Assembly: GCA_030641715.1 (NCBI GenBank)
Contig: DAOWGX010000015.1
Coordinates: 560 to 64,559 of the forward strand
DNA: 64,000 nucleotides
From: Nanobdellota archaeon
GTDB lineage: Archaea > Nanobdellota > Nanobdellia > Pacearchaeales > GW2011-AR1
Direction of reading: 5' to 3'
The notes beneath the pieces were generated by a model. That model did no database searches and was not told where the DNA came from. It saw only the letters and a program-made list of their open reading frames with translations. Positions 9,973 to 64,000 of the stretch are shown here, in pieces; within the stretch, counting starts at the first letter, position 1; each line of letters opens with the position of its first letter. A program made the position numbers and the translations under genes.

Positions 9973-10053
9973 CGCCCACACCAGGAATCGAACCTGGATG
10001 CCCCAAAAGGCCTGGTTTTCAAGACCAGTGCAATACCATTATGCGATGTGGGC
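9973..10053 (-). tRNA. tRNA-Ser (anticodon UGA), type II with a long variable arm.
   Basis: Hand-folded: acceptor GCCCACA/TGTGGGC, a 3-bp D-stem, anticodon stem CTGGT/ACCAG with loop CTTGAAA, a 14-nt variable arm, T-arm CCAGG-TTCGATT-CCTGG and discriminator G. CCA is not encoded. Confidence 0.8.
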
Positions 10054-10075: not shown

Positions 10076-10156
10076 CGCCTGTACCCCGAATCGAACGGGG
10101 ATGCCCCGAAGAGCCCGGTGTTCGAGACCGGTGCGATACCATTACGCGATACAGGC
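10076..10156 (-). tRNA. tRNA-Ser (anticodon CGA), type II.
   Basis: Hand-folded: acceptor GCCTGTA/TACAGGC, anticodon stem CCGGT/ACCGG with loop CTCGAAC, a long variable arm, T-arm CCCCG-TTCGATT-CGGGG and discriminator G. Confidence 0.8.
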
Positions 10157-29551: not shown

Positions 29552-30919
29552 ATGGGACTCCGAGAGTTGTTACACAATCTGCCTGAAGTCAGAGGACCGA
29601 CGCAGAAGAAAGTTAGTTTCAACATCAAACTCAAGTGGACACTCGTAATCCTCGTCGCGTTTTTCATCCTCGCCAACATCCCCCTGTTCGGAATCGCCGA
29701 GGGTTCGCTTTCTCGATTCGAGTATCTAGCGATTTTACTTGGAACTTCATTCGGCTCGATTATCTCCCTCGGTATCGGTCCTATCGTTATGGCTTCAATC
29801 ATCTTGCAGTTGCTTAGTGGTGCGCAGATTCTGAACATTGATCAAACTACTACTGAAGGTAAAAAGTTTTATCAGGCTATGCAAAAAGTTTTAGTCTTCT
29901 CATTCGTAATTTTCGAGGCATTAGTCTACGTTTTAATGAAAGGTATACAAGCCGATCCAGGATTCACAGGACTTGTAATCTTACAATTATGTCTCGGTGG
30001 TTTTTTAATCGTTTTTATGGATGAGGTTATCCAGAAATGGGGCTTCGGAAGTGGAGTTTCGTTGTTTATCGCGGCAGGTATCGGTTGGAGATTGTTTACC
30101 CAACTATTCCAATTCATAGGAACGCAGGGAACTTTCGAAGCATCGGGAAAAGTTTGGGCATTGATATCGTCGGTAATTGTTGGTGACGGTGCAGGTGCTG
30201 CCTGGGCTATTTTTCCAATCATTGTTACCGTGCTCTTATTCCTGGCGGTCGTTTTCGCCCAAAGTTTAAAAGTTGAGATTCCCTTAGCGTTTGATAGAAT
30301 TCGAGGACATTCTGTTAAATGGCCATTACAATTCTTTTATGTCGGAGTTATCCCAGTAATTCTAGTTTCAGCCTTAGCAGCTAATCTTCAGCTATTCGCG
30401 TCGCTGTTACAGAACTGGCTAGGTCACGCAACATTCCTCGGAGGGTTCGGTTCCAACGGCGTTCCAGTCTCAGGCCTATCCTACTGGATTCATTCCACTC
30501 CACTTTTAGAAACCATAATCAAAGGTAGCTTCAGATGGATTTACGCACTTCAAGCGACAGGTCACGTTTTATTTTACACAGTTTTCTCCGTCTTATTCGC
30601 ATTCTTCTGGGTTAGCACTTCAGGTCAGGATGCCCAAAGTCAGGCGAAGAAAATCATGAGTTCCGGAATGAATATGCCCGGATTTAGAAAAGACGAACGA
30701 GTTCTGGAATCAATCTTGAAAAGATATGTCACCCCCTTGACAGTTATGGGTGGTGCAGCAATCGGTATATTAGCGTCGGTCGCGAACTTATTCGGTGCCT
30801 TAGTGGGCGGAACCGCAATCCTTTTAGCAGTCATGATTCTTTACCAGTTATATCAAAACATCGCACAACAACACGCGGTGGACATGAACCCTGCATTGAA
30901 AGGATTTTTCGGAGCATAA
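29552..30919 (+). CDS. secY: Protein translocase subunit SecY.
   Basis: A 10-TM protein at the canonical post-L15 position, with a SecY-like plug and TM2 region. Confidence 0.9.
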   Translation: MGLRELLHNLPEVRGPTQKKVSFNIKLKWTLVILVAFFILANIPLFGIAEGSLSRFEYLAILLGTSFGSIISLGIGPIVMASIILQLLSGAQILNIDQTTTEGKKFYQAMQKVLVFSFVIFEALVYVLMKGIQADPGFTGLVILQLCLGGFLIVFMDEVIQKWGFGSGVSLFIAAGIGWRLFTQLFQFIGTQGTFEASGKVWALISSVIVGDGAGAAWAIFPIIVTVLLFLAVVFAQSLKVEIPLAFDRIRGHSVKWPLQFFYVGVIPVILVSALAANLQLFASLLQNWLGHATFLGGFGSNGVPVSGLSYWIHSTPLLETIIKGSFRWIYALQATGHVLFYTVFSVLFAFFWVSTSGQDAQSQAKKIMSSGMNMPGFRKDERVLESILKRYVTPLTVMGGAAIGILASVANLFGALVGGTAILLAVMILYQLYQNIAQQHAVDMNPALKGFFGA

Positions 30920-35455: not shown

Positions 35456-38119
35456 ATGGATAAAAAAGTTATTACAGATATCTTAAAAGATAAACGATTT
35501 CAATGGATAGCGACGACAATCATCTTCCTAATCATATTATTCATGAGCTCCTCTATCAGAGTTTCTAACTGGGATTTATTAACAGACCAAACCACTGGAG
35601 AGAAGATTCCACTAGCCTTAGACCCTTATTATTTTCTGAGAATTGCCGAAACCATTTCAGAAACTGGCGAAAATATGCCGGAAGTAGATGTTATGAGAAA
35701 TAGCACCCCGTGGCATGCAGAAATCATGCCGAAAGTCGTCGTCGGAATGTATAACTTTGGAAATGTTTTCAATCCAAATTTAACATTAAGAGAAGTGAAC
35801 GTTTTTTCCCCAGTTGCATTTTATTTCGTCGGGTTGATAATATTTTTCTTCTTAGTTTACATTTTAACAAAATCTAAAGTTGCGGGTTTAATCTCGTCGG
35901 GTTTGTTAGCCTTTTCCCCCGCATACCTTTATCGGACAATGGCAGGTTTCTCGGATCACGAATCTATAGGTATGGTCGCCCTCTTCGCTTGCTTTTTATT
36001 TTACACATTGGCACTAAAGAATTTTGAGCAGAATTGGAAAAAGACAGTTCTCTATGGATTAGGTCTAGGATTTTTTACTGCATTCGTTTTAGCGACGTGG
36101 GGGGGTGCTATCACCCTCGTATTGATGGCCGTTCCCCTTTCGTTTTTATTATACTGGCTACTAAAAAATAAAGATAGGGTAAAAGCAATCGCGTTTTATC
36201 TTGCATGGATTATCTCAAGTATTCTGTTCCCGTTAATCTTCAACAACACCTTAGTAAAAGTTATGATTGGTAGATTCTCGACCACATACGGACTACTTAC
36301 TTTTGCAGTTCTTGGATTTATGCTAATTGATTACATCTTTGAGTTATTAATTAAAACAGGGAAAATCAAAATAAAAAAAGAGAATAAGATTTTGTATGTT
36401 CTCGGAAGTTCTGCAGTGATAGGATCCGTCGCCCTAACCTTTTTAGGTAAAAACATTCTGGCACTTTTGAAAGATGTTTGGTATGCAATTTTATTTCCCT
36501 TTGGAACCACCCGTGTAAATTTAACCGTCGCTGAGAATGCACAACCTTACCTGATGGATTGGATTAATCAAAATGGTCCAATGATTTTCTGGCTATTTGT
36601 TTTTGGAATTTTCTTTATGGGATTTGAACTTGGAAAGACCATTAAGTCGAAAAAGCATACCTTACTATTTAGTCTATCTTGGATGTTGATGATTTCTGCG
36701 ATGTTGTTTAGCAGAATTTCATCTTCGTCAATATTTAACGGAGAAAACCTTCTTAGTCAAGCAACATATTTAATGGGCCTTGGAATTTTCCTAGGATATT
36801 TTATTTGGTTGAAAATGCATCAAAAATTTAATGGAGAAAAATTGGATTCTTCTTTAATCCTACTCATCGTCTTGATGTTTGTCGTGGTTCTTAATGGTAG
36901 GTCGGCCATTAGAACTTTCTTTTTGATTACTCCGTTTGTTCTTTTAGGAGTCGGATATTTCGTAATGAAAATTTTCAAATATGCTCGAGAAAGCAAGGAA
37001 GAGATTTTAAAAATAGTCCTTTGGGGATTATTTTTATTTGCGATTGGAGGAGTTTTATTTTCTGTAAACACTTACAAAGAAAATATTACTAATCAGGCCA
37101 AGTATACAGGACCTAGTGCAAACGTGCAGTGGCAGGGAGCGATGTCTTGGGTTCGTAACAATACAGAAGAAAGCGATAAATTCATGCATTGGTGGGATTA
37201 TGGATATTGGGTACAAACACTTGGTGAGAGACCGACGAGTGGCGATGGGGGACACTTCCAAGGGTTCTATAACGGGAACATAAGAATCGGACGGTATCTT
37301 CTAACGACAGATAAGCCAGAAAGTGCATACAGCCTCATGAAAACCCATAATGTTTCATACTTATTGATAGACCCAACGGATTTAGGAAAGTACAGTGCCT
37401 ATTCCAAGATAGGCTCCGACGACGATTGGGATAGATTTTCCATGATTCCCGTGGGAGTTTCCGATGAAAAGAATATAAAAGAGACTGCGGATGGCGTAGC
37501 TCAAATTTATCAGTTGAATAGCATTGTCGACGAGGATATTTATTACGAAGATATTTTCTTGCCAGGTCCGAGTTATGATACCTATGGCAGACCTTCTTAC
37601 AAATCTTATATTATCGGGATCATCCTAAAAGTAGGTTCTGGGGAGAACGGGACAATCGAACAGCCAGAGGCCGTTTATGTTTATAATAATATTCAATATA
37701 AAATTCCCTTAAGAAGAATTTACTTCAATGGTCGGTTGCACGATTTTGATAGTGGATTAAATGCAACCCTTAGATTAATCCCCTCAGTTCAGCAATCGGG
37801 ACAAGGGATGACAGTCAACCCTCTAGGAGCAGCGATATATTTATCTCCGAGAACTGAAAAGACTTTGTTTGCGAAACTATATTTGATGGACGATCCTTTA
37901 AGAGAATATAGCGAGATTTCTTTGGCTCACTCTGAAGATGGTCCTGTCGTCAAAGCGATGAAGATGCAGAATGCCGCGATAAATGACTTCGTTTATTATC
38001 AAGGATTTCGAGGACCTATCAAGATTTGGGATGTTGATTATCCCGTTGGGACCCCAGTCTATGAAGAATTTTTGAAACCTTCTACAGGTTATGGGGATGT
38101 TGATTGGAGGTTTGAGTAG
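35456..38119 (+). CDS. aglB: Archaeal oligosaccharyltransferase AglB (STT3 family).
   Basis: A 13-TM N-terminal region is followed by the WWDYGYW motif and a DK-like segment in a large C-terminal periplasmic domain. Size is 887 aa. Confidence 0.9.
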   Translation: MDKKVITDILKDKRFQWIATTIIFLIILFMSSSIRVSNWDLLTDQTTGEKIPLALDPYYFLRIAETISETGENMPEVDVMRNSTPWHAEIMPKVVVGMYNFGNVFNPNLTLREVNVFSPVAFYFVGLIIFFFLVYILTKSKVAGLISSGLLAFSPAYLYRTMAGFSDHESIGMVALFACFLFYTLALKNFEQNWKKTVLYGLGLGFFTAFVLATWGGAITLVLMAVPLSFLLYWLLKNKDRVKAIAFYLAWIISSILFPLIFNNTLVKVMIGRFSTTYGLLTFAVLGFMLIDYIFELLIKTGKIKIKKENKILYVLGSSAVIGSVALTFLGKNILALLKDVWYAILFPFGTTRVNLTVAENAQPYLMDWINQNGPMIFWLFVFGIFFMGFELGKTIKSKKHTLLFSLSWMLMISAMLFSRISSSSIFNGENLLSQATYLMGLGIFLGYFIWLKMHQKFNGEKLDSSLILLIVLMFVVVLNGRSAIRTFFLITPFVLLGVGYFVMKIFKYARESKEEILKIVLWGLFLFAIGGVLFSVNTYKENITNQAKYTGPSANVQWQGAMSWVRNNTEESDKFMHWWDYGYWVQTLGERPTSGDGGHFQGFYNGNIRIGRYLLTTDKPESAYSLMKTHNVSYLLIDPTDLGKYSAYSKIGSDDDWDRFSMIPVGVSDEKNIKETADGVAQIYQLNSIVDEDIYYEDIFLPGPSYDTYGRPSYKSYIIGIILKVGSGENGTIEQPEAVYVYNNIQYKIPLRRIYFNGRLHDFDSGLNATLRLIPSVQQSGQGMTVNPLGAAIYLSPRTEKTLFAKLYLMDDPLREYSEISLAHSEDGPVVKAMKMQNAAINDFVYYQGFRGPIKIWDVDYPVGTPVYEEFLKPSTGYGDVDWRFE

Positions 38120-53839: not shown

Positions 53840-54859
53840 TTAGAGATTAGTCTCCATCAGAGCCTTTATAATTTTTCCCCCACAGTTATTCCAATTATAT
53901 TTCTTCATCAATTTGGCCCTAATTCCGATTTTCTGCTTTTTACTTAATTTTATAACCTCGTCCATCGCCCGGAAAACTGATTCCGAATTATAGATATCAC
54001 AAGCACCTGGAAGCCCAACACCAATTTCCTTTAACGAAGTTTTATTGTTAAACACCACGGGAGTTAAATAATTATATGACTCAATTAAAGGTAATCCGAA
54101 CCCTTCTATAGAGGACAAAAAAATTGTAAATTTAGCATCTCTATAGTATCCCGCAAGTTCCTCATCTGTCATTTCCCCATTGGAAAAAATTCCCTTATAA
54201 TTCGTTCCCTTTATCTTATTATATTCTTTCAATAACTCTATAGACCTTTCTAAATTTTTATGAGGGTTTCTGTTTCCAATTATAAAAACATAACAGTCTT
54301 TTTTTATTAGAGGTTTTTTACATTTATATTTCTCAGAGCCCAAAGGAACGACGATAATTTTTTTTGAAGTAAATTTACTAATCTGATGTTTCGAAAAATT
54401 TGAATTTGTAAAGATTAAGTCAAATCTTTTTGCAGAAATAATTAAGAGAATAGAAACAATTAGAAAAGATAACATCCATTTTTTTAAATAATATAATGGT
54501 ATTAAATCATGCATAAATCCAATATATTTTATATTTTTATATTTTTTAAAAGGGACATGTCCTTTCGGAAAAAATAATAAATCCAATTTATTTTTTATTG
54601 CAAATTTATTAGCGGACATTGGATAAAAAAATAATTTATTAAAAACATATTTCCTCCGGTTTTTCTTGATTATAAATTTTTTACATTTAAATTTTTTAAA
54701 ATATTTTTTACTTTCTTCATTCAAAATTAAGATAATTTCCAATCTTTTCTCTTTCTCCAATTCCTTCAAAATATACCTAACAACTTTAAGTATTCCGATT
54801 GATTTTGTTTTTTTGAGATTTATATCTGCACAATAATAACCTATTTTCAATTTTTTCAT
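53840..54859 (-). CDS. GT4-family (GT-B, group 1) glycosyltransferase.
   Basis: The C-terminal FLSSIEGFGLPLIESYNYLTPVV carries the EX7E motif. Confidence 0.8.
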   Translation of the reverse strand: MKKLKIGYYCADINLKKTKSIGILKVVRYILKELEKEKRLEIILILNEESKKYFKKFKCKKFIIKKNRRKYVFNKLFFYPMSANKFAIKNKLDLLFFPKGHVPFKKYKNIKYIGFMHDLIPLYYLKKWMLSFLIVSILLIISAKRFDLIFTNSNFSKHQISKFTSKKIIVVPLGSEKYKCKKPLIKKDCYVFIIGNRNPHKNLERSIELLKEYNKIKGTNYKGIFSNGEMTDEELAGYYRDAKFTIFLSSIEGFGLPLIESYNYLTPVVFNNKTSLKEIGVGLPGACDIYNSESVFRAMDEVIKLSKKQKIGIRAKLMKKYNWNNCGGKIIKALMETNL

Positions 54860-55536
54860 TATCTTATAATCTGAACTTCATTTAAATATCTCAACCCCAT
54901 CAAACTCCTCCAAACCTTCCCCCGCGAATGTCCAAAATCCGTAACCAGTCTATAAAACCATTCCAATCCGACCCCTCTAAAAATCCTCGGCGCCTCTCTT
55001 TTCTTCTCCAACAAAAAATCCATTGCTGCCCCGACATTAAAATAAAAAGTAGAATATTTTTTATATAATTGATTAGCCAGAATCTCTTGTTTAGGATTCC
55101 CAATACAAACCCAAACATAATCAGGTTTAAATTTCCCCAATTGTTCCCCAACTTTTTCAACTTCTTTTTGAGGAAAAACCATACATTTTATATAAGGAGG
55201 ATTGTACGATTTCGCCTTCTTTAATTTAGGAAATTTTTCAATCAGCCCGGCAAGGTCTTCTTCAGAGAGGCCTACAAAAAAATGTTTTTGTTTGCTATTA
55301 AGTTTATCTTGGAAAAAATCTCTTGTAAATGAAGGCCCTCGAATTTGTTTCGTTCTTAAAAAAAAACTTAATATCTTCCCATCTGGAAATATAAAATTCT
55401 CCGAAGACGATACAGCCCTTTTAAAAATTGGCTCGTTGTTAAATAAATAAACCGAATAAAGATTCTGAAAATTTAGAATTCCATCTTTGCTCGATTTTAG
55501 TATCTCTTGCGGAGTTTTTCCCGTAAAATCCATCAT
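54859..55536 (-). CDS. WecB/TagA/CpsF-family (GT26) glycosyltransferase.
   Basis: FPDGKIL...IRGPSFTRDF...FFVGLSEED...GNPKQEILANQL...NVGAAMDFLLEKKREAPRIFRGVGLEWFYRL matches the GT26 signature throughout. Confidence 0.8.
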   Translation of the reverse strand: MMDFTGKTPQEILKSSKDGILNFQNLYSVYLFNNEPIFKRAVSSSENFIFPDGKILSFFLRTKQIRGPSFTRDFFQDKLNSKQKHFFVGLSEEDLAGLIEKFPKLKKAKSYNPPYIKCMVFPQKEVEKVGEQLGKFKPDYVWVCIGNPKQEILANQLYKKYSTFYFNVGAAMDFLLEKKREAPRIFRGVGLEWFYRLVTDFGHSRGKVWRSLMGLRYLNEVQIIR

Positions 55537-55566: not shown

Positions 55567-57048
55567 CTACCCCTCCAACAACATCCTTTTCAACTTTATC
55601 CCCGTCATCCCTTCCAAGTGTTCCCTCGCCCGAGACCCAAACTTCTCCCCAATCATCCCAAGATATCTCTCACTTGTAAAATACTCGTCAAAAGCATTAT
55701 CCCTAAACTGAAGCACCTCCTTAGAAGAAAGATGATCCGTCGACAACGGTAAAGAATTATAAGAATGTTGAGAATATCCTTGCCAACCAATATCCTTAAA
55801 ATCCTCGGGCAAAGGCACTTTATTCGCAACAGATTCCGTATGCAACTTCGACCCCGGATACGCCATCGCAGAGTAAAAATTCGCCCACTCACAATTCAAT
55901 TCCTTAGCCATCTCCAACGTCTTCCCCATGCTCCCCATATCGTCGTCAGGCAACCCAAAAATATAATTCCCTCCAACATTAATACCATGATTTTTTATTT
56001 CCCCAACAACCCTATATATTTCTTCTTTCTTAAACCGACCCTTAGAAACCTTTCCCCGAACTTCATTATCCCCAGATTCAATACCCAACGCCAACCAATT
56101 TATCCCTGCCTTCTTAAATTTATCAAGATGCTCCTCCTTTGTGGTATCTACTCTCGCATACGTCCAGATATTCAAGCCATAATCCCTTTCTATCAACCCA
56201 TCCACAATTGGCATAAAATGGCTAGGTTTCAAAACGAATATTTCATCAATTAATTTAAGATTTTTAACGTCGTATTTCTTAACCAAAGTATCTATCTGCT
56301 TAAGAGTCCAGTCAGCATCCCAAGACCTATAAGATGGTCCCCCAAATGGTGCATTAATACAACAAAAAGAACACCCAAACGGGCAACCAAGCGTCGTCGA
56401 GAGTGCGGCATAATTCAACCTTGAATCCAAATCATCAAGCACATGCCAGTTATGCGCCTTATACTTATCCATCGGCAACAAATCCCAAGCAACATCATTC
56501 AATTCAGCCGGCAAATTTTTAATCAACTTCGCAGGAGGACCATTCGAAATAACATCCCCATCTCGATACCACAATCCCGGAATCGTATTTAGCGACGCAC
56601 CCTCGAGCAATCCTTCCAATGTATGAAACCCTTCCCCAACAGAAACATAATCCACAGCCTCCTCCCTAAGCGTCTTCCCAGGAAGCGCCGAAGCATGAAT
56701 CCCCGTAAGAACAACTTTCGAATCCAGATTCGCATCATTTATCTTCCTCGACAATTCTCCAATCCCAGTCATCAACGCCGTCGACGCAGAAGGATGTTGT
56801 CCATAACCGACAATATTAATCAACCGAGGAGAACGCTCTTCAATCGTCCGCACCGTTTCATCAAAATCCAGATTCTCGGCATTCGCATCCAAAATATCAA
56901 CAGAGTAATCCTTTTTTTGCATATAAGAAGCCGTCAACGCAGCCCAAAACGGAGGCTCTATCGCAGAATAATCACTACTCAAATCCTGATATATCTTCTT
57001 TCTCGTCCCGCCGACATTAACGAACAGTAAGTCTAAGTCTTTTGACAT
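55567..57048 (-). CDS. Cobalamin-binding (class B) radical SAM enzyme.
   Basis: An N-terminal B12-binding Rossmann-like region is followed by CPFGCSFC (CxxxCxxC) and a radical SAM core. The gene is markedly GC-richer than its flanks. Confidence 0.75.
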   Translation of the reverse strand: MSKDLDLLFVNVGGTRKKIYQDLSSDYSAIEPPFWAALTASYMQKKDYSVDILDANAENLDFDETVRTIEERSPRLINIVGYGQHPSASTALMTGIGELSRKINDANLDSKVVLTGIHASALPGKTLREEAVDYVSVGEGFHTLEGLLEGASLNTIPGLWYRDGDVISNGPPAKLIKNLPAELNDVAWDLLPMDKYKAHNWHVLDDLDSRLNYAALSTTLGCPFGCSFCCINAPFGGPSYRSWDADWTLKQIDTLVKKYDVKNLKLIDEIFVLKPSHFMPIVDGLIERDYGLNIWTYARVDTTKEEHLDKFKKAGINWLALGIESGDNEVRGKVSKGRFKKEEIYRVVGEIKNHGINVGGNYIFGLPDDDMGSMGKTLEMAKELNCEWANFYSAMAYPGSKLHTESVANKVPLPEDFKDIGWQGYSQHSYNSLPLSTDHLSSKEVLQFRDNAFDEYFTSERYLGMIGEKFGSRAREHLEGMTGIKLKRMLLEG

Positions 57049-57127
57049 TTCGATTTTTAGCTTTTACACTATATATTTATATGTGTGATTTAACACAACT
57101 TGTAAAATTAAGAGGTAACCTATGTAC

Positions 57128-57772
57128 TCAAATATTTTTGATAAGCTCTAATGATTTTAAATCCTTAAACTCATTAATAAAGATATCTGCGTCACTCAAA
57201 TTATTTTCTTGCAATGTTGATCCGATTGCAATGCAAAATGCGTTGGCTGCCTTAGCAGATTTAACACCAAGAGGTGCATTTTCAATAACAACACTTTCAT
57301 TAGGATTTAAATTTAGTTTTTTCATTGCATTTAGATATGGATCAGGATTAGGTTTCCCTTTCTCTGTGTCATCTCCAGATATCAAACAATCGAACTTATT
57401 CAAGAATTCCAACGGAAGAGTTTTATGAAGCTTTTCGTGTGGACTTGCAGAAACTATTGCTATTAACATTCCCTTAGATTTCAAAAAATCAATTAATTCC
57501 ATTACACCCTCATAAAAATTAACTGTATGATTTTTACGATAAAATTGATTTTTAAATTCGACCAATCTTATAAAATCTTCTTCTGCGATATTTTTCCCTA
57601 CACTAAGGGTTTTTGCAATCTCAATTAATTTCATTCCCTCTAGTATAAAATATTCCTCTTTTTGTATCGATTCCCCATATTGCTCAAACGCATTCGCCCA
57701 TGCAAGAAAATTATCTTCCATACTTTTAATGAGAACTCCATCCAAATCGAACAATATGCCTTTTACTCTCAT
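57128..57772 (-). CDS. HAD-superfamily hydrolase IA (beta-phosphoglucomutase/phosphatase-like).
   Basis: ILFDLDGVLIKS (motif I), VSAS and ENAPLGVKSAKAANA. Confidence 0.8.
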   Translation of the reverse strand: MRVKGILFDLDGVLIKSMEDNFLAWANAFEQYGESIQKEEYFILEGMKLIEIAKTLSVGKNIAEEDFIRLVEFKNQFYRKNHTVNFYEGVMELIDFLKSKGMLIAIVSASPHEKLHKTLPLEFLNKFDCLISGDDTEKGKPNPDPYLNAMKKLNLNPNESVVIENAPLGVKSAKAANAFCIAIGSTLQENNLSDADIFINEFKDLKSLELIKNI

Positions 57773-57773
57773 G

Positions 57774-58535
57774 CTAATCTAAATCAAAAATGTTTCTTTG
57801 AATATTTATAATTCTAATGTCTTTTCCCATTTTCATATCGTCCCTAAAATTTATTTTCTCATAGTTAAAAATATCTCCAGGCTGATGAACAATTTTTTCA
57901 TCTATCTCAATTTCTCCAGATATTAAAATATTTATCAATCTTTTATTTATATGTAAATAATTTTTAACAGATTCTATATCTTCAAATTTTTTTATTGAAA
58001 TACTCATGTTTCCAAATTTTTTATGAAGATCGTCACCCTTAAGAAACGTCCGTTCATATTTTGATAAATCGAAACACATCTCTTTTTTTAACTCATATCC
58101 CCTTTTTTCCCTTCCATAATTATCCTTTAATCTTAATAAATCTGTCTTCTGTGGAGGACTCTCAAGTTCCATTACCATTGCTCCATTTTTTGATATCGCT
58201 GTAGTCGAATGGAATTTTCCTTTTTCAAATACAATAACATCACCTTCTTCTAGCTCAAAGTTTTTATCTAAGGTGGATACGCTAACTTCCCCAGATAGAA
58301 CGATAAGGATTGTTTTTTTATTCGCATGACAATGCATAGAAGTCATATTTCCATTATTTAAATGGAGAATCCATATATCAGTCATCTCCCCCTTATAAGC
58401 AAGATACTCTCGTCCCCAAGGTTTTATAACTATAGCCTCCGAAAAGTCAAAATTATCAAGTTCCTTGTTAAAAGATTCCGGAATTTTTGAAATACACTGT
58501 GCATCTATTTCCGTTGTAAACGTTTCATGTATCAT
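57774..58535 (-). CDS. Bicupin protein (phosphomannose-isomerase-type cupin_2-like).
   Basis: The first cupin is KPWGREYL...HLNNGNMTSMHCHANKKTILIVLSGE. The second is INILISGEIEI...QPGDIF. Confidence 0.55.
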   Translation of the reverse strand: MIHETFTTEIDAQCISKIPESFNKELDNFDFSEAIVIKPWGREYLAYKGEMTDIWILHLNNGNMTSMHCHANKKTILIVLSGEVSVSTLDKNFELEEGDVIVFEKGKFHSTTAISKNGAMVMELESPPQKTDLLRLKDNYGREKRGYELKKEMCFDLSKYERTFLKGDDLHKKFGNMSISIKKFEDIESVKNYLHINKRLINILISGEIEIDEKIVHQPGDIFNYEKINFRDDMKMGKDIRIINIQRNIFDLD

Positions 58536-59062
58536 TTTTCCACTTCAAATAGTTCGATGGTTTTTTTCATCCAATCTCCAAGATACTTATAATGTGGACA
58601 AGAAATAATATTCCCATCTACAACAAAAGGTGCATCAACATACTCTGCTCCAGAATTATTAATATCATCTTTAATACTATAGTACCCAGATATTTTTCTG
58701 CCTTTTACAACATTTGATGAGATTAACATCTGCGCCCCGTGACAGATACTCGATATAAGCTTACTTTCACTATTCCATTTACTGATAAAATTTAGAACTC
58801 CCTCTTCTTGCCTTAATTTCTCCATGCATTTTGCTCCACCAGGAACAACTAATAAATCATAATCTTCAATTCTCATATCATCATAATCAATTACCTTAGC
58901 ATCTTTGTCCGAAGGTATCGCTGTGCCTAAAATTCCAACACATTTTTTTGCATCTTTCAACGCAGTAGTTACTTCGAAACCATCTTCCTTTAATCGATAA
59001 TAAGGATAAATAAATTCGTGATCTTGTACTAATGCTCCAGTTATTAACAATGCTTTTTTCAT
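58532..59062 (-). CDS. DJ-1/PfpI family protein (class I glutamine amidotransferase-like).
   Basis: ALLITGALVQDHEFIYPYYRL...ICHGAQMLISS carries the nucleophile-elbow Cys. Confidence 0.8.
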   Translation of the reverse strand: MKKALLITGALVQDHEFIYPYYRLKEDGFEVTTALKDAKKCVGILGTAIPSDKDAKVIDYDDMRIEDYDLLVVPGGAKCMEKLRQEEGVLNFISKWNSESKLISSICHGAQMLISSNVVKGRKISGYYSIKDDINNSGAEYVDAPFVVDGNIISCPHYKYLGDWMKKTIELFEVEK

Positions 59063-59655: not shown

Positions 59656-60564
59656 TTAGCTTCTTAACAGAATCAACTCCCTCACTTTTTCAACAATTTT
59701 CTTCGTAGTCGGAGTTCCATTCTCATATCTTTCAGCAGTTCCTACAGATCTATCTCCTGCACCTAACGCCTCAACATAAATCTTTGTTTGTTTCATCAAC
59801 TCATACGCTACAGACTGAGATGCCCCAGATATTTCAAACCCTGAATCAACTACAAGTCCTAATTTTGACTGTTTAAGCGGATTTAAAATTCGTTCTGACA
59901 AGTCCAATGGCTTTAGCCATAAGATATTTATAAAATTACATTTTATTCCTTCTCTCGTTAACACATCCGTAGCTTCTTTCACTTTAAATCTAGAATATCC
60001 TATTCCATAGACGGTTATTTGAGCATCCTGATGAATAACATTAGGCATTTCTTCTACTTGATTAAAACTATGCCTATGTTCGCTAACAAACATCGGATCT
60101 TCTCCTGCGAGATAATTTTTCCATACTTCTTCATATTCTCCCGGAGTCATTGGAGAACAAACCTTAAATCCAGGGACATGCATAAATATACTATGTGTTA
60201 TTCCTGAATGAACTGGGCCGGTCCCTTTTTTTTCAGTGGCAAGTGCCCGAATAAAAACAGGAGAACTAACCCCAAATATATCTTTTGATTTTGCAGAGTA
60301 ATTAATTAACATACTTGAATTTAAAAACATGAAATCTTGAAATCTCACTACAAAAATAGGTCTTCGACCAACAATCGCACAACCCGTTGCGATTCCTCCT
60401 CCCGCAACATCAGTCATTGGAAGTTCTACGATATTTTTTGTATCTGGAACAGTATTATTTACCCAGCCTACAGCACTTAGACATTGCCCCAAAATTATTC
60501 CATTATTATTCTCCAAATGTTTTCGAGTAAGCTCCCTTATTGTTTCTGCAAGTGTTTTTTCCAT
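59656..60564 (-). CDS. TPP-dependent dehydrogenase E1 beta-like subunit (transketolase-like Pyr and C-terminal domains).
   Basis: ILGQCLSAVGW...MTDVAGGGIATGCAIVGRRPIFVVRFQDFMF...CSPMTPGE follows the E1-beta/transketolase C-terminal pattern. Confidence 0.65.
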   Translation of the reverse strand: MEKTLAETIRELTRKHLENNNGIILGQCLSAVGWVNNTVPDTKNIVELPMTDVAGGGIATGCAIVGRRPIFVVRFQDFMFLNSSMLINYSAKSKDIFGVSSPVFIRALATEKKGTGPVHSGITHSIFMHVPGFKVCSPMTPGEYEEVWKNYLAGEDPMFVSEHRHSFNQVEEMPNVIHQDAQITVYGIGYSRFKVKEATDVLTREGIKCNFINILWLKPLDLSERILNPLKQSKLGLVVDSGFEISGASQSVAYELMKQTKIYVEALGAGDRSVGTAERYENGTPTTKKIVEKVRELILLRS

Positions 60565-61418
60565 AGCTCCTCCATTTCAATTTTAGTTTTTTCTTGTATC
60601 TTGAATATTTCCGATTGAGAAATTCCTCTTTTTAACAATCCCTCTTCAAATATTTCTAATCTATCTTCGTGAGGAGATCCATCTTGACCTGTACCTACAT
60701 GCCACCTATGTCTACATGTTCTACAATTAATGAATGCTGGAAGATTTGTTTTAAGATTGTTTACTGTAGAGATAATTAATTCAGGGTCATCACATATATC
60801 CTCACAAGGCATACCTACAGCCCTTAGTGCATCTGTCAATTCCCAATTCCGTCTTTCTGATTTTTTCGTCAAAATTGAAAGGTCGTTATCTTCACATATA
60901 AATAATATTGGCAATTTATTTGTTGCCGCAAATGCCATTGCTGTGAAAACATAGTCTTCTTCCGCAGCCCCATCGCCGAAAACACATAGAACAGATTTGT
61001 TTTTTGCTCCAAGTGCTGCACCAACTGCAAGTGGAACGTTTTCTCCAATCAGTCCGTGATGCCCAAACATTCCTATTTCGAAATCCTGTACTCCTGGAGA
61101 TCCACCTTTCCCTTTTGTACATCCTCCATCTCTCCCAAGCAATTCTTCAACTAATTTATCCTTATTTCCCCCAAATGCTATATATGTTGAATGGGCTCTA
61201 TGCTGTGTAAATATAAGGTTTGGATTAAAACTCGATGATACTGATGCAGATATCGCCTCTTGCCCAATAGATAAATAAACAGGGCACAGAATATCTTGTT
61301 CATCATACGCTTTTTTTACTTGCTTTTCGAAATTTCGGATAGAACACATTTTCTCAAAGATATCTAACATTACTTTTTGGTTAAAACTTTCACCTTTCAA
61401 CAGATTGTAATACTCCAT
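60537..61418 (-). CDS. TPP-dependent dehydrogenase E1 alpha-like subunit (E1_dh family).
   Basis: CPVYLSIGQEAISA...HRAH...GKGGSPG...VFGDGAAEEDYVFTAMAFAATNKLPILFICEDN matches the TPP-binding GDG...N motif of E1 alpha. Confidence 0.65.
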   Translation of the reverse strand: MEYYNLLKGESFNQKVMLDIFEKMCSIRNFEKQVKKAYDEQDILCPVYLSIGQEAISASVSSSFNPNLIFTQHRAHSTYIAFGGNKDKLVEELLGRDGGCTKGKGGSPGVQDFEIGMFGHHGLIGENVPLAVGAALGAKNKSVLCVFGDGAAEEDYVFTAMAFAATNKLPILFICEDNDLSILTKKSERRNWELTDALRAVGMPCEDICDDPELIISTVNNLKTNLPAFINCRTCRHRWHVGTGQDGSPHEDRLEIFEEGLLKRGISQSEIFKIQEKTKIEMEELWKKHLQKQ

Positions 61419-61659: not shown

Positions 61660-63102
61660 TTATTCCAATCCCAATTTTTTATTAGTTAAAAATCTATTTT
61701 GACCCTTATCTATACATTTCATTAATCTATTAACTGTAGCCATAGCCCCCTCTATCCCAAATTTTTTAATTATGGCTTCCCACCTCCACGGGGCCAAAGA
61801 AATACTAGCAAAAGCCTCATTTTGCAAATCAATCAAATCTTCAGGGGAAAGGTCGCCGACCTGCATTACTGCCGCATTATATCTCCTATAATTTGAAAAA
61901 TCCTCAGTTACTAACCTTAATCCATTTTCATGATTTTTTGCCATTTTGTAGAGTTCCGTCCCAGGATAAGGAACTGCGATACTTATATTTGCTTGTCTGA
62001 TCTCCTTTGATTCCCTCAAATATTTCAGAGTTTCTCTAATAGTTTCTTCGGTTTCTCCAGGCAACCCAATCATACAAGAATTAAGTGTTTCAATTCCATA
62101 TTTATTAGTGAGTTTATTTGCAATTCCATAACTCTCTAGTGGAATCTGTTTTCTAATTGTCTTTCTAATGTCTTTATTAACAGATTCAAGACCAAAAGAT
62201 AACCTAATTAATCCAGCATCTCTCATTTTTTTTATTAATCCTTCATCAACTAGATTTGCTCTTGTGCTACCTTCAAAAGTGATATTAAGATTAGAATCAA
62301 TGATTTTATCACAAATATCAGAAATATGTTTTTTATTAAGGGTTAAAGTATCATCTAAAAACATAAAATGCTCTATTGAATATTTTTTAACACATTCTTC
62401 CATTTCCTTAACAACTTTTTCAGGATCTCTCCTCCTAGTATCATTTCCAAAAACTTTAGTACTACAAAAAATACACTTATAAGGACAACCCCTCACAGTC
62501 ATGATGGAGGTCATTTTTTTCCGACCTTCTAATGTTCCGAGAGTATAATTATCATGATTTAGCAAATGTCTTGCAGGAACTGGTAAAGAATTTATATCCT
62601 GTACAGGCTCACAAGGACCTGTGAGTTTAACCCTACTTTGTTCTCTGTAAAGAATCCCCCCAATATCTTTTATATCCCTATTTTTATCAAGAGCATCTAA
62701 AAATTTAGACCAAGAAACTTCAGCTTCTCCAATGAATCCATAATCAAAAGGACTATTAAATACCTTTTCCTTTAAAACAGTTATATGGGCCCCTCCGATA
62801 GTAATGGGGGTCTGAGATCTTTGTTTTAATTTACTTGCGAGATCTGTAGCAATATGGTAAAAAGGAGTTGTTGCGGTAATCCCAATCAAATCAGGATTAT
62901 ATTTTGAGGTCTGATCTACCATACATTCCAAAGATAATCCCTCACTTTCCCCATCAAGAATTCGTACTTCATGACCTTTCTCCTCGGCAATTGCACCCAA
63001 ATAAGCCAAACCTAATGGAGGCCATGTAGCCCCCTTTTTAGCAAAATGAGAAATATTACCATAATCTCCCGTCCAAGAAGGATATAACAATGAAATTTTC
63101 AT
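61660..63102 (-). CDS. Cobalamin-binding (class B) radical SAM enzyme.
   Basis: The N-terminal B12-binding region (GLAYLGAIAEEKGHEVRILDG) and CPYKCIFC precede the radical SAM core. Size is 480 aa. Confidence 0.8.
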   Translation of the reverse strand: MKISLLYPSWTGDYGNISHFAKKGATWPPLGLAYLGAIAEEKGHEVRILDGESEGLSLECMVDQTSKYNPDLIGITATTPFYHIATDLASKLKQRSQTPITIGGAHITVLKEKVFNSPFDYGFIGEAEVSWSKFLDALDKNRDIKDIGGILYREQSRVKLTGPCEPVQDINSLPVPARHLLNHDNYTLGTLEGRKKMTSIMTVRGCPYKCIFCSTKVFGNDTRRRDPEKVVKEMEECVKKYSIEHFMFLDDTLTLNKKHISDICDKIIDSNLNITFEGSTRANLVDEGLIKKMRDAGLIRLSFGLESVNKDIRKTIRKQIPLESYGIANKLTNKYGIETLNSCMIGLPGETEETIRETLKYLRESKEIRQANISIAVPYPGTELYKMAKNHENGLRLVTEDFSNYRRYNAAVMQVGDLSPEDLIDLQNEAFASISLAPWRWEAIIKKFGIEGAMATVNRLMKCIDKGQNRFLTNKKLGLE

Positions 63103-63166: not shown

Positions 63167-64000
63167 CTATCTAAATATTTTTATATGGTCTAGATACTTC
63201 TTTCTCAACTGTGCAAATATAAACCTCTTCCCAGAAACAGCCTCCAAAAACAAACCATAAACAAATACCATAAATTTTACAGGATGTTTCCTCAACGAAT
63301 AAAGAACCCTTGGAAAATAATAAGTAAAAAACATTTCAGAATTTTTATCAAATTCCTTGCCAAAAAAACCTTTTCTAAAACTAACAATTTTCACCAAAGG
63401 AACTGGGACAAGCACAGTATTTTTTTTATTAGAAAACGTAATCCTCTCAGAGAAATAATCTTTCCTTATCTTTTCAAAATTATTTACAAAGAATTTCTTC
63501 GTCATAAAAAATTGATTAATATTTAAAAATTTAGAGTAGTCAGCGTCAAGATATTTAATCCCTGGAGAAAATCTGAAATAAGAATAATTCCCCAAAATTC
63601 TTGAATAAATAAAATAATCGCAACAACTAACCTCTTTCCCAGTTAATTTTAAAGAATATATCTGTAAATTATTTTTTAATTTGGAGTGGATTGTCTTACT
63701 TCTTGAAAAGGAAATATATTCGTAAGATTTTATTATCTGAAACAATTCCTTTTTAGATAATCGCATATGTTTTTCTTCGAGATTTAAAACTCGATAGTCG
63801 TATTTTGGCATATCCAAATGTGAGATATTATCTTTTGTCCTAATAATAAAATTACTAAGATCTTTTTCAAGATTAAAATTTTTCTTTATTTTTTTGTATG
63901 CTGCTTCAGCTATTTTTTCCCTCTCTTTCTCGTGTTCTAAATAATATTCTATTTTTTCAAAAAGCTCTTTTCGAGACCTAAAAAAAACAATTTCCTCATT
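63167..64000 (-). CDS. C-terminal part of a larger protein. The frame is open to the window end: the upstream segment resembles a GT4 glycosyltransferase C-terminus and is followed by a 216-aa C-terminal domain of unknown function.
   Basis: The reverse-strand frame is continuous from 64000. The upstream portion reads ...RSRKELFEKIEYYLEHEKEREKIAEAAYKKIKKNF..., a GT4-like C-terminal helix. The ORF-track Met at 63817 is internal. Confidence 0.4.
   Translation of the reverse strand, partial: NEEIVFFRSRKELFEKIEYYLEHEKEREKIAEAAYKKIKKNFNLEKDLSNFIIRTKDNISHLDMPKYDYRVLNLEEKHMRLSKKELFQIIKSYEYISFSRSKTIHSKLKNNLQIYSLKLTGKEVSCCDYFIYSRILGNYSYFRFSPGIKYLDADYSKFLNINQFFMTKKFFVNNFEKIRKDYFSERITFSNKKNTVLVPVPLVKIVSFRKGFFGKEFDKNSEMFFTYYFPRVLYSLRKHPVKFMVFVYGLFLEAVSGKRFIFAQLRKKYLDHIKIFR

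What the first reader, a model, noticed from the sequence alone, without database searches (positions are those of the whole stretch)
55567..57048. Compositionally foreign cobalamin radical SAM gene inside the glycosylation operon.
By eye this gene runs roughly 45 percent GC while the adjacent GT4/GT26 genes and intergenic DNA run roughly 25-30 percent. It also produces long Arg-rich antisense ORFs (55765-56253, 56623-57030), which is another symptom of atypical composition. This suggests recent horizontal acquisition of a B12-dependent radical SAM methylase/alkylase into an archaeal glycan pathway. It is the second such enzyme in the island; the other is at 61660-63102.
Basis: seen in the sequence. 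Interest (0 to 1): 0.65.

Follow-up and report, generated by a model that had tools for sequence, protein, structure and literature searches.

The report
G-codon-rich B12 radical SAM glycan gene
A vitamin-B12-type radical SAM enzyme gene in the surface-sugar island of a tiny archaeon really is GC-richer than its neighbours. The excess is a swap of A-ending for G-ending codons that the organism's own ftsZ and FKBP genes also show, so it does not prove that the gene was recently imported.

Summary
ORF 55567-57048 (- strand, 493 aa, B12-binding plus radical SAM domains) is 43.0% GC against 26-34% for its neighbours, which is z=5.1 within the island, and the boundaries coincide with the ORF ends.

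The excess comes only from G-ending codons replacing A-ending ones. G/(A+G) is 0.73 against 0.31±0.11 for other genes, while C/(C+T) is 0.12, the same as the neighbours. This depletes TTA/CTA/TCA, which explains the long antisense ORFs.

The same codon dialect occurs in native genes that are syntenic in the sister species: FKBP, ftsZ and a 117-aa ORF. In ftsZ it arose after the split from an 86%-identical sister species (42 A→G against 1 G→A). secY and L10/L12 are as GC-rich, mainly through C-ending codons. Composition therefore cannot establish foreign origin.

The protein belongs to a large, uncharacterised, highly conserved family. It is found in DPANN archaea, many bacterial phyla and 421 IMG/VR contigs. 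It always sits in heptose or branched-sugar glycan clusters, next to or fused with a thiamine-dependent E1-type enzyme. Its closest relatives are DPANN (55-65% identity), not GenK, Fom3 or HpnP.

Here it ends a conserved E1α-E1β-DJ-1-cupin-HAD-rSAM cassette. The cassette lies in an N-glycosylation island that the sister species lacks. Mobility of the island is supported; recent, separate import of this gene is not shown.

The parts
55567..57048 (-). rSAM1, the finding itself: a 493-aa B12-binding-domain radical SAM enzyme. The CxxxCxxC motif is C222/C226/C229. It is G-ending-codon rich.
   Evidence: Pfam PF02310 scores 53.6 and PF04055 scores 58.1, both above cut-off. The three Cys are invariant in a 30-sequence alignment. 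The AlphaFold model has pLDDT 90 and matches AprD4, MgmA, TsrM, OxsB and TokK. Third positions are A .15, C .06, G .39, T .41.
55765..56253 (+). Antisense ORF of 162 aa, a by-product and not a gene.
   Evidence: It lies in the exact reverse-complement frame. It stays open because TTA/CTA/TCA are depleted in the sense gene. No Pfam hit.
56623..57030 (+). Antisense ORF of 135 aa, a by-product and not a gene.
   Evidence: Same frame and same cause as the other antisense ORF.
57049..57127 (.). AT-rich spacer (25% GC) upstream of rSAM1, with a TATA-like ATAAATATATA about 25-35 nt before the ATG.
   Evidence: Read directly from the sequence. Its role as a promoter is inferred.
57128..57772 (-). HAD-family hydrolase of the beta-phosphoglucomutase type. 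Cassette member.
   Evidence: Pfam HAD_2 1e-31. It is colinear upstream of the rSAM1 orthologue in L063, L065 and L019 at 40-42% identity. Host-like codons, G/(A+G) .29.
57774..58535 (-). Cupin protein resembling a mannose-6-phosphate isomerase. Cassette member.
   Evidence: Pfam Cupin_2 and MannoseP_isomer. Orthologues sit in the cassette loci at 37-48% identity and in 16 of 80 IMG/VR loci.
58532..59062 (-). DJ-1/PfpI family protein. Cassette member.
   Evidence: Pfam 3e-39 and TIGR01382 above cut-off. 41-52% identical in bacterial cassette loci and 72% in the DPANN-type locus L089.
59656..60564 (-). ThDP-dependent E1 beta-type subunit. Cassette member.
   Evidence: Pfam Transket_pyr and Transketolase_C. 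55-57% identical to L061, L063 and L065. Present within 10 kb of rSAM1 orthologues in 35 of 81 loci.
60537..61418 (-). ThDP-dependent E1 alpha-type subunit. In some relatives this domain is fused to the C-terminus of rSAM1.
   Evidence: Pfam E1_dh 5e-25. Fusion proteins P0016, P0027, P0038 and P0039. Domain order shown in L089.
61660..63102 (-). rSAM2, the second B12-binding radical SAM enzyme. It belongs to a different family, 24% identical to rSAM1, and uses host-like codons.
   Evidence: Best non-self hit is 71%. It is adjacent to rSAM1 orthologues in L003, L006 and L092.
63167..64000 (-). 3' part of a Glyco_trans_1_2-family gene. The gene starts beyond the window end.
   Evidence: L001 gene 2242-3882, 546 aa, Pfam PF13524. 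Homologues lie next to rSAM1 in DPANN and IMG/VR loci.
54859..55536 (-). WecG/TagA/CpsF (GT26) glycosyltransferase downstream of rSAM1. Its last ~65 codons (54862-55056) also show the G3 pattern.
   Evidence: Pfam 3e-27. Sliding third-position composition.
53840..54859 (-). GT4 glycosyltransferase, the last gene of the co-directional block.
   Evidence: Pfam Glycos_transf_1.
35456..38119 (+). AglB/STT3 oligosaccharyltransferase. It is the conserved anchor after which synteny with the sister species ends.
   Evidence: Pfam STT3 and AglB_core. 73% nucleotide identity to the sister. Homology is lost after GT11 at about 38.9 kb.
1..898 (-). Comparator: native ftsZ (5' 299 codons) with the same G-ending dialect, acquired after the split from the sister species.
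   Evidence: G/(A+G) is .71 against .38 in the sister at 94% amino-acid identity. Polarised changes are A→G 42 against G→A 1. The shift is uniform along the gene.
1582..2232 (-). Comparator: native FKBP-type PPIase with the same dialect in both this genome and the sister.
   Evidence: G/(A+G) and C/(C+T) are .63/.14 here and .64/.14 in the sister, whose syntenic orthologue is 91% identical. Its RSCU correlation with rSAM1, r=.856, is the highest in the window.
29552..30919 (+). Comparator: native secY with equal GC (.441) and GC3 (.445), reached through C-ending codons.
   Evidence: C/(C+T) is .50 here and .51 in the sister, and G/(A+G) is .33.

Best explanation
What it is. The ORF encodes a B12-binding-domain radical SAM enzyme of a large, uncharacterised, very conserved family.

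Where the family occurs. It is a standard component of glycan-modification clusters built around the GDP-glycero-manno-heptose pathway genes (GmhA, GmhB, HddA/HddC), a DegT-type PLP enzyme, a second B12 radical SAM enzyme and a Glyco_trans_1_2 transferase. It lies next to, or is fused with, a thiamine-diphosphate enzyme of either the E1 alpha/beta type or the acetolactate-synthase/YerE type.

Likely mechanism (inferred). The ThDP enzyme makes a two-carbon 'active aldehyde' from pyruvate and adds it to a keto-sugar nucleotide. The radical SAM enzyme then carries out a radical step on that sugar or on its branch. That step could be a C-methylation in the manner of class B enzymes, or a dehydration or rearrangement like that of AprD4. 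The product is then transferred to the N-glycan assembled downstream of AglB.

Place in this genome. In this Pacearchaeota-type genome the gene is the last biosynthetic member of a colinear E1α-E1β-DJ-1-cupin-HAD-rSAM cassette. The cassette lies in a strain-variable island.

The GC excess. It is real, but it consists only of G-ending codons replacing A-ending ones. The most likely cause is the same directional A→G synonymous bias, internal to this lineage and specific to individual genes, that reshaped the native ftsZ and FKBP genes. It is therefore not a fingerprint of a foreign donor. The island and cassette are horizontally mobile over long times, but this gene is of the DPANN type and belongs to the pathway.
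For: Shown:
- Domains, motif and fold.
- Family breadth and conservation. The top 120 hits are 53-65% identical. 582 of the first 600 pattern matches in the one-genome-per-species (GTDB) collection encode a relative, and the best 80 span DPANN archaea and many bacterial phyla. 421 IMG/VR contigs also carry it.
- Placement in a DPANN-dominated clade.
- Recurrent partners and fusions. GmhA scores above its cut-off, the best hits for the fused kinase/transferase are HddA and HddC, and the ThDP enzyme is E1-type or ALS/YerE-like.
- Cassette colinearity with Ca. Brocadia pituitae, a deltaproteobacterium, a verrucomicrobium and a Bdellovibrionales MAG. All members, rSAM1 included, are 37-57% identical.
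- Composition. G/(A+G) is .73 and C/(C+T) is .12.
- Orthologues in other AT-rich hosts match their flanks, so this is not a family trait.
- Native FKBP and a 117-aa ORF carry the dialect in both sister species.
- The codon usage of rSAM1 correlates best with FKBP, r=.856.
- ftsZ gained the dialect in this lineage: 60 against 11 unpolarised differences, and 42 A→G against 1 G→A when polarised.

Inferred: the chemistry, and the claim that the process seen in ftsZ also shaped rSAM1.
Against: - Within the tightly packed co-directional cassette only rSAM1 has the dialect. The five upstream genes have G/(A+G) of .25-.30. A shared history and a shared transcription unit do not predict this.
- On the same contig the HddC/HddA-type gene is G-type (.61/.14) and the oppositely oriented DegT is its mirror image (.13/.60). 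That pattern looks like DNA-strand skew carried in from a strongly skewed genome. Such genomes exist among relatives (L009, L094, L176).
- Similarity patterns in these islands are mosaic. In L092, rSAM2 is 70% identical but the adjacent rSAM1-like gene is only 47% identical.
- The cause of the A→G bias is unknown.
- No enzyme of this family has been characterised, so the chemistry is conjecture.
Confidence: 0.5

Rival explanations
1. Xenologous replacement within DPANN. rSAM1, perhaps together with the HddC/HddA and DegT genes, was imported later than its neighbours. The donor would be another DPANN archaeon whose genome has strong replication-strand skew, with a G/T-rich leading strand. The G-ending, T-ending codon pattern would be the not-yet-ameliorated donor signature.
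For: - It is the only gene in the cassette with the pattern, and the pattern has sharp ORF-level boundaries.
- The mirror-image composition of the oppositely oriented DegT fits a DNA-strand signature rather than a coding-strand signature.
- Relatives L009, L094 and L176 show exactly such skew, with .55-.65/.11-.19 on one strand.
- rSAM1-like genes also stand out from their flanks in L016 and L092.
- The island is absent from the sister species.
- Best hits are mosaic.
Against: - The same dialect is present in native, syntenic genes, and it arose in situ in ftsZ.
- No homologue above 65% identity exists among 5.8 billion protein clusters, so no donor can be named and 'recent' cannot be shown.
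- There are no flanking repeats, tRNA genes or adjacent mobility genes.
- rSAM1 and rSAM2 show broadly parallel identity to shared contigs: 65/64 for L003 and 60/65 for L006.
Confidence: 0.33
2. One reading: recent acquisition from bacteria of a GenK/Fom3/HpnP-type methylase into an archaeal pathway.
For: - The family is abundant in bacteria.
- Cassette partners E1β, DJ-1 and HAD have 40-57% identical bacterial counterparts.
Against: - The nearest relatives and the surrounding clade are DPANN archaea. Bacterial orthologues are only 48-53% identical.
- All named NCBIfam families score far below their cut-offs: HpnJ 128 against 578, PhpK 75 against 600, HpnR 55 against 650.
- C-ending codons are not raised, as they would be for a gene from a typical mid-GC bacterial donor.
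Confidence: 0.04
3. Artefact: a chimeric metagenome assembly joined a fragment from a GC-richer organism.
For: The source is a MAG. Related populations co-occur in the same samples.
Against: - Three assemblies (NCBI, ENA, Logan) carry the identical gene.
- The independent Logan contig spans both junctions, from E1α through HAD and rSAM1 into the start of WecG.
- The boundaries coincide exactly with the start and stop codons.
Confidence: 0.03
4. The low A3 content is maintained by selection for a real overlapping antisense gene.
For: Two long antisense ORFs lie in the exact reverse-complement frame.
Against: - A-ending codons are depleted in every codon family, not only in TTA, CTA and TCA.
- Seven stops still break the antisense frame.
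- The antisense ORFs have no Pfam match.
- FKBP has the same dialect and no antisense ORF of 90 aa or more.
Confidence: 0.02

Closest known systems
Cobalamin-dependent (class B) radical SAM enzymes acting on sugars or small molecules: GenK and GenD1 of gentamicin biosynthesis, Fom3, TokK, CysS, TsrM and OxsB
   Same: - An N-terminal Rossmann B12-binding domain plus a radical SAM barrel with CxxxCxxC.
- Foldseek matches to TsrM, OxsB, TokK and CysS at E 1e-17 to 1e-22 and TM .64-.70.
- It sits in a sugar-modification pathway, as GenK does.
   Different: - At most 18% identity to any solved member.
- No NCBIfam family reaches its cut-off.
- Cobalamin binding and methyl transfer are untested.
- The partnership and fusion with a ThDP E1-type enzyme, and the heptose context, are not features I know for those enzymes. 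That last point rests on my own knowledge.
AprD4, the radical SAM 1,2-diol dehydratase of apramycin biosynthesis (PDB 6FD2)
   Same: It is the best match both by sequence (phmmer 4e-11) and by structure (TM .71-.77). It also acts on an aminosugar substrate and has the same two-domain layout.
   Different: 17% identity. The NCBIfam AprD4 model scores 56 against a cut-off of 500. From the literature as I recall it, AprD4 does not use cobalamin. Whether this family does is unknown.
HpnJ (hopanoid-associated, TIGR03471) and BchE (TIGR02026)
   Same: These are the top NCBIfam hits, aligned over almost the full length.
   Different: The scores are 128 against 578 and 93 against 481, far below the cut-offs. 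No hopanoid or bacteriochlorophyll genes are nearby.
ThDP-dependent sugar-branching systems: YerE (yersiniose) and the E1 alpha/beta pairs AviB1/AviB2 and AlmDI/DII in antibiotic sugar pathways
   Same: The family's constant partner is an E1 alpha/beta-type or an ALS/YerE-type ThDP enzyme, located in a nucleotide-sugar cluster.
   Different: As far as I know, those known systems have no B12 radical SAM partner. Here the two are adjacent or fused. The analogy is recalled from memory and was not tested.
Compositional islands used as markers of horizontal transfer
   Same: There is a sharp, gene-bounded deviation in GC and GC3 inside a variable surface-glycan island.
   Different: The deviation affects one base on one strand (A→G). 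It is shared with native genes and was generated in situ in ftsZ. The standard inference therefore fails here.

Membership tests
B12-binding-domain radical SAM enzymes (class B architecture) | N-terminal cobalamin-binding Rossmann domain (PF02310) | tested here: met
   53.6 bits against a cut-off of 32.1, residues 30-147.
B12-binding-domain radical SAM enzymes (class B architecture) | Radical SAM core with a CxxxCxxC cluster motif | tested here: met
   PF04055 scores 58.1 against 29.5. C222, C226 and C229 are invariant in 30 homologues.
B12-binding-domain radical SAM enzymes (class B architecture) | Fold shared with solved members | tested here: met
   The model has pLDDT 90.3 and pTM .91. Foldseek matches MgmA, TsrM, OxsB, TokK and CysS at E 1e-17 to 1e-22.
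B12-binding-domain radical SAM enzymes (class B architecture) | Binds cobalamin and uses it in catalysis | not testable with these tools
   Biochemistry is needed. The nearest structure, AprD4, has the same domain but reportedly no cobalamin.
HpnJ (TIGR03471) | Score at or above the curated cut-off of 577.6 | tested here: not met
   127.9 bits.
BchE (TIGR02026) | Score at or above the curated cut-off of 481.35 | tested here: not met
   92.9 bits.
PhpK/Fom3-type and HpnR methylases (TIGR04479, TIGR04367) | Score at or above the curated cut-offs of 600 and 650 | tested here: not met
   75.2 and 54.9 bits. No PEP mutase was found among the island genes scanned.
AprD4 diol dehydratases (NF033070) | Score at or above the curated cut-off of 500 | tested here: not met
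   56.1 bits. It is only the closest fold.
GrsA/GrsB GDGT ring synthases | Homology to GrsA/B and a lipid-biosynthesis context | not tested
   The libraries used hold no model for them. Every one of more than 160 contexts examined is a glycan cluster.
Recently horizontally acquired gene | Composition deviates from the flanking genes | tested here: met
   z=5.1 against the island.
Recently horizontally acquired gene | Composition lies outside the range of demonstrably native genes | tested here: not met
   secY and L10/L12 have equal GC. FKBP and ftsZ have the same G-ending dialect, with r=.856 to FKBP.
Recently horizontally acquired gene | Absent from the syntenic position in a close relative | tested here: met
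   The sister GCA_030637285.1 loses homology after GT11, but this holds for the whole island. No sister orthologue appears among the hits of 53% identity or more.
Recently horizontally acquired gene | Phylogenetic placement inside a foreign clade | tested here: not met
   A neighbour-joining tree places it with Nanoarchaeota, Woesearchaeota and Pacearchaeota sequences. The tree has no bootstrap support values.
Recently horizontally acquired gene | A near-identical donor sequence, or flanking insertion scars or mobility genes | tested here: not met
   The best non-self hit is 65% identical. Only chance-level repeats were found. No tRNA gene lies nearby. The IS200-like gene is 6.7 kb away.

The most novel reading that the evidence does not exclude
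This Pacearchaeota lineage has a directional synonymous A→G recoding process that acts on individual genes. Its effect looks polarised by DNA strand: in the window, GC3-rich genes on the - strand gain G, while those on the + strand tend to gain C.

The process has rewritten about half of the A-ending codons of native ftsZ since the split from a sister species. It is maintained in FKBP, and it also marks rSAM1, the HddC/HddA gene and, in mirror image, DegT.

If it is a true endogenous process, it would be an unrecognised source of false 'foreign' islands. Candidate causes are adenine deamination linked to transcription or replication, re-equilibration after a reversal of strand skew, or codon-based regulation.

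Separately, the rSAM1/ThDP-enzyme pair may catalyse an undescribed sugar-branching chemistry that is widespread in bacteria, archaea and viruses.
Probability: 0.3. Interest if true: 0.6.

Novelty: new member of a known kind. Interest (0 to 1): 0.4.

Why it matters
For genome scanning this is a cautionary case. A sharp GC island bounded by a single gene, lying inside a variable surface-glycan locus, would normally be scored as recent horizontal transfer. Here codon-level dissection and a sister genome show the same signature being generated in place in a native core gene.

For enzymology it flags a very large, strongly conserved family of B12-domain radical SAM enzymes. The family shows 48-65% identity between archaea and bacteria and occurs in hundreds of species and IMG/VR contigs. 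I found no paper on it in four full-text searches. It is constantly paired or fused with a thiamine-dependent enzyme in heptose glycan clusters. That makes it a tractable target for discovering a new sugar modification on the surfaces of DPANN archaea, CPR bacteria, anammox bacteria and others.

For molecular evolution, the 42:1 A→G burst in ftsZ is a concrete and testable anomaly.

Tried and rejected
1. Whether GC3 elevation is a property of the family. Rejected: in 73 other loci the orthologue's GC3 follows its flanks, for example .13-.20 in AT-rich DPANN hosts.

2. Whether secY shows the same phenomenon. secY, like other GC3-rich + strand genes, is raised mainly through C-ending codons, and this is conserved in the sister. 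It may be the mirror image on the opposite strand, but the post-hoc strand test is only p=1.4e-3. The question is left open.

3. Whole-codon log-likelihood against 'core' and 'island' models. rSAM1 is z=-0.8 against core genes and z=-2.6 against island genes. This test proved too blunt, so I replaced it with separate purine and pyrimidine indices.

4. Search for a donor. Nothing is above 65% identity among 5.8 billion clusters. The viral homologues are at most 50% identical, and none has the dialect. GenBank phages hold only 26%-identical relatives.

5. Phosphonate (Fom3-like) pathway. No PEP mutase was found among the island genes scanned in the window, and none appears in the Pfam listings of the related loci inspected.

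6. Flanking repeats, tRNA genes and non-coding RNAs. None of note.

7. Literature. Four searches found no paper on this family. One candidate cyanophage paper turned out to be unrelated.

One outgroup locus had no DNA available.

9. My first cluster look-up used wrong minus-strand coordinates and had to be repeated.
Full report
**Observation.** The ORF 55567-57048 on the minus strand encodes a 493-aa protein. Its GC content is 43.0%, with GC1 .472, GC2 .372 and GC3 .445. The adjacent genes are much lower: GT4 .264, WecG/GT26 .341, HAD .315 and cupin .298. The second B12 radical SAM gene has GC3 of only .235.

With gene-sized sliding windows the ORF lies in the top 0.16% of the 64 kb. It is 5.1 standard deviations above the rest of the 38-64 kb island. 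The elevation is uniform from the first to the last codons. It drops at the ORF ends to intergenic values of .17 and .25.

The two antisense ORFs exist.

**What the excess is made of.** Third positions in the gene are A .15, C .06, G .39 and T .41. The window means are .35.12.19 and .34.

I split synonymous choices into purine-ending and pyrimidine-ending pairs. G/(A+G) is .73 against .31±.11 for the other 75 ORFs, the highest value in the window. C/(C+T) is .12, the same as the island neighbours. A binomial test against 0.30 gives p of about 4e-41.

The gene prefers GCG, GGG, TTG, ACG, AAG, AGG/CGG and CCG, yet it keeps TTT, AAT, CAT, TAT, GAT and ATT. So the gene is not simply GC-richer: A-ending codons have been swapped for G-ending ones and nothing else has changed.

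This also explains the antisense ORFs. They lie in the exact reverse-complement frame, where stops arise only from sense TTA, CTA and TCA. The gene has 7 of these (1.4 per 100 codons) against 5.1-7.1 per 100 in its neighbours. The antisense ORFs have no Pfam match.

**Is this a family trait?** No. In 73 other loci the orthologue's GC3 follows that of its flanks. In AT-rich DPANN hosts it is .13-.20, equal to the neighbours.

**Is it outside the native range?** No, and this is the key control.

A sister species (GCA_030637285.1, labelled Pacearchaeota) is about 86% identical in nucleotides across the ribosomal operon, secY and the genes that follow. Gene-specific codon biases are conserved between the two genomes, with r=.85 for C/(C+T) and r=.54 for G/(A+G) over 25 genes. 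secY scores .50 and .51 for C/(C+T), so its GC-richness is native and comes from C-ending codons.

The FKBP-type PPIase at 1582-2232 is clearly vertical. Its syntenic sister orthologue is 91% identical, and a graded series of Pacearchaeota and Nanoarchaeota hits follows at 70-88%. It has G/(A+G) .63 and C/(C+T) .14 here, and .64 and .14 in the sister. A neighbouring 117-aa ORF behaves the same way. The codon usage of rSAM1 correlates better with FKBP (r=.856) than with any other gene in the window.

The partial ftsZ at 1-898 is also G-type (.71), whereas the sister's ftsZ, 94% identical in protein, is not (.38). At codons for identical amino acids, window-G/sister-A pairs outnumber the reverse 47 to 9 in the partial gene. 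In the full gene, taken from another assembly of the same sample, the count is 60 to 11, spread evenly along the gene.

With a third genome as outgroup (GCA_034716495.1), parsimony assigns 42 A→G and 1 G→A change to the window lineage. The sister lineage has 10 and 9. T↔C changes are balanced. There is a caveat: there is only one outgroup, and it is itself A-biased at these sites. The window/sister asymmetry does not depend on it.

A native core gene has therefore acquired this same signature within the lineage. A G-ending codon excess cannot be read here as a mark of foreign origin.

**An unexplained pattern.** Just beyond the window on the same contig, the HddC/HddA-type gene lies on the same strand as rSAM1 and is G-type (.61/.14). 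The oppositely oriented DegT gene is its mirror image (.13/.60).

Among the 20 ORFs in the top GC3 quartile, all 8 on the minus strand are G-type, while 9 of the 12 on the plus strand are not (Fisher p=1.4e-3, a post-hoc test). L10 on the plus strand shows 28 window-C/sister-T pairs against 5 of the reverse.

This suggests that the shift is polarised by DNA strand rather than by coding strand. Relatives L009, L094 and L176 have strong whole-strand skew of just this kind. I cannot decide between two readings. One is an in-place process, perhaps re-equilibration after a change of replication polarity with rates that differ between genes. The other is patchy import from skewed relatives.

**What the gene is.** Pfam finds a B12-binding domain and a radical SAM domain, both above cut-off. 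The CxxxCxxC cysteines (C222, C226, C229) are invariant in 30 homologues.

A confident AlphaFold model (pLDDT 90) is closest to AprD4 (TM .71-.77). It then matches MgmA, TsrM, OxsB, TokK and CysS, all at 18% identity or less. By sequence alone only AprD4 and MgmA are detectable in the PDB. Every named NCBIfam family falls far below its cut-off: HpnJ 128 against 578, BchE 93 against 481, PhpK 75 against 600 and HpnR 55 against 650.

So the gene is a member of the B12-domain radical SAM architecture, but it belongs to none of the characterised families. Four literature searches found nothing on it.

**Distribution.** The family is very large and slow-evolving. The 120 best database hits are 53-65% identical. 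Of these, 582 encode a relative. The best 80 include DPANN archaea at 55-62% identity. Bacteria of many phyla follow at 48-53%: Planctomycetota including Brocadia and Scalindua, Nitrospirota, Proteobacteria, Cyanobacteria, Verrucomicrobia, CPR and a Coxiella-like endosymbiont.

A further 421 IMG/VR contigs carry relatives at 41-50% identity, some with the same partner genes. I did not verify that these contigs are viral, and GenBank phages lack an orthologue. A neighbour-joining tree places the window protein in a DPANN-dominated clade next to Nanoarchaeota sequences (no bootstrap).

**Context.** The island begins after AglB/STT3 (35456-38119). It holds glycosyltransferases, methyltransferases, an epimerase, an IS200-like transposase and nucleotide-sugar genes. 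Synteny with the sister ends after the GT11 gene at about 38.9 kb.

On the minus strand the order is Glyco_trans_1_2, rSAM2, E1α, E1β, (NUDIX on the opposite strand), DJ-1, cupin, HAD, rSAM1, WecG, GT4.

The segment from E1α to rSAM1 is colinear with loci in Ca. Brocadia pituitae and a deltaproteobacterium. Verrucomicrobial and Bdellovibrionales MAGs carry parts of the same set (DJ-1 and cupin, with E1αβ or HAD) around their rSAM1 orthologues. All members, rSAM1 included, are 37-57% identical.

E1-type genes lie within 10 kb of the orthologue in about 35 of 81 cellular loci. In four database proteins the E1α domain is fused to the C-terminus of the radical SAM enzyme. In another locus an acetolactate-synthase/YerE-like ThDP enzyme takes its place.

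In DPANN relatives the constant companions are rSAM2, GmhA (above cut-off), a GmhB-like phosphatase, a fused HddC/HddA-like transferase-kinase, a DegT/RfbH-like PLP enzyme and the Glyco_trans_1_2 protein. The HddC/HddA-like, DegT and Glyco_trans_1_2 genes lie just beyond the right end of the window on this contig.

The gene is therefore a core member of the pathway, not an insertion into it.

**Likely function (inferred).** The partners point to a heptose-derived nucleotide sugar that receives a two-carbon branch from pyruvate through the ThDP enzyme, as in the YerE or AviB1/B2 systems (recalled from the literature). The radical SAM enzyme would carry out a radical step on the sugar or on its branch. 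That step could be C-methylation if the enzyme is a true class B enzyme, or a dehydration or rearrangement in the manner of AprD4 or OxsB. The modified sugar would then be incorporated into the N-glycan. None of this chemistry has been tested.

**Verdict on horizontal transfer.** Long-term horizontal mobility of the cassette and island is well supported. The evidence is the cross-domain distribution, the absence from the sister and the mosaic best hits. For example, in L092 rSAM2 is 70% identical but the adjacent rSAM1-like gene is only 47% identical, and DJ-1 is 72% identical to L089.

A recent and separate import of rSAM1 is not shown. No donor above 65% identity exists, and there are no insertion scars. 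The placement is DPANN rather than bacterial, and the compositional argument fails the native-gene control.

Separate import is not excluded either. rSAM1 is the only cassette gene with the dialect, and the mirror-image DegT fits a signature carried in from a strand-skewed relative. I put in-lineage origin of the bias at about 0.5 and xenologous replacement from another DPANN archaeon at about 0.33.

An assembly chimera is unlikely, because an independent Logan contig spans both junctions.

**Novelty and interest.** As filed, the finding is an ordinary kind of thing: a new, uncharacterised subfamily of a known enzyme architecture in a variable glycan island. Three things raise it above routine:
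- the demonstration that the 'foreign' signature is a one-base, gene-bounded A→G recoding also seen arising in native ftsZ;
- the size and conservation of an unstudied enzyme family coupled to a ThDP enzyme;
- its apparent presence on viral contigs.

Noticed in passing
window 1-898 (- strand); full gene in L175 5882-6997: Native ftsZ has undergone a burst of synonymous A→G changes in this lineage: 42 A→G against 1 G→A, polarised with L176. The sister lineage has 10 against 9. This raises GC to .475. The + strand ORF 96-668 is a spurious antisense ORF inside ftsZ.
   Followed up: yes
window 1582-2232 (-) and 6363-6716 (-); sister L093 10001-10660 and 5349-5702: The FKBP-type PPIase and an unannotated 117-aa ORF carry the G-ending, T-ending codon dialect in both sister species. 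The bias is gene-specific and stable in native genes.
   Followed up: yes
L001 1-1026 and 1030-2166 (same contig, just beyond window position 64000): The HddC/HddA-like gene is G-type (.61/.14). The adjacent, oppositely oriented DegT/RfbH-like gene is its mirror image (.13/.60). This suggests a skew specific to the DNA strand. In the window, all 8 minus-strand ORFs in the top GC3 quartile are G-type, against 3 of the 12 on the plus strand (p=1.4e-3).
   Followed up: partly
window 34224-35240 (+): A radical SAM/SPASM gene is inserted between the Glycos_transf_4 gene and aglB. In the sister species those two genes are only 35 bp apart, so this is an insertion of about 1.27 kb specific to this genome.
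   Followed up: partly
window 48431-48877 (-): An IS200-like Y1 transposase lies inside the glycan island. It is also compositionally atypical (GC .42, G/(A+G) .56).
   Followed up: no
L095-L174 (IMG/VR contigs), e.g. L098 7932-9512: 421 contigs classed as viral encode relatives 41-50% identical. Of the 80 fetched, some also carry E1α (25), cupin (16), DJ-1 (13) and E1β (13). The L098 flanks are a glycan cluster plus a PD-(D/E)XK nuclease. The viral nature of these contigs was not verified, and GenBank phages have no orthologue.
   Followed up: partly
L009, L094, L176: Related Woesearchaeota and Nanoarchaeota genomes show very strong DNA-strand skew at third codon positions. Genes on one strand have about .55-.65/.11-.19, and genes on the other have the mirror values. 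In L094 ftsZ contains an intein with a LAGLIDADG domain.
   Followed up: partly
L092 446-1918 against 1935-3413; L016: In other genomes too, the rSAM1-like gene differs in composition from the rSAM2 gene or flanks next to it. In L092, GC3 is .34 against .20. In L016, GC3 is .42 against flanks of .27. This hints that the family is swapped often.
   Followed up: no
window 9973-10053 and 10076-10156 (-): There are two adjacent tRNA-Ser genes, with anticodons UGA and CGA. The genome therefore encodes a dedicated decoder for the G-ending TCG codon.
   Followed up: no
window 7792-8682 (+): Ribosomal protein L10 has C/(C+T) .47 here against .21 in the sister, with 28 window-C/sister-T pairs against 5 of the reverse. 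This is a large lineage-specific T→C shift in a plus-strand native gene.
   Followed up: partly
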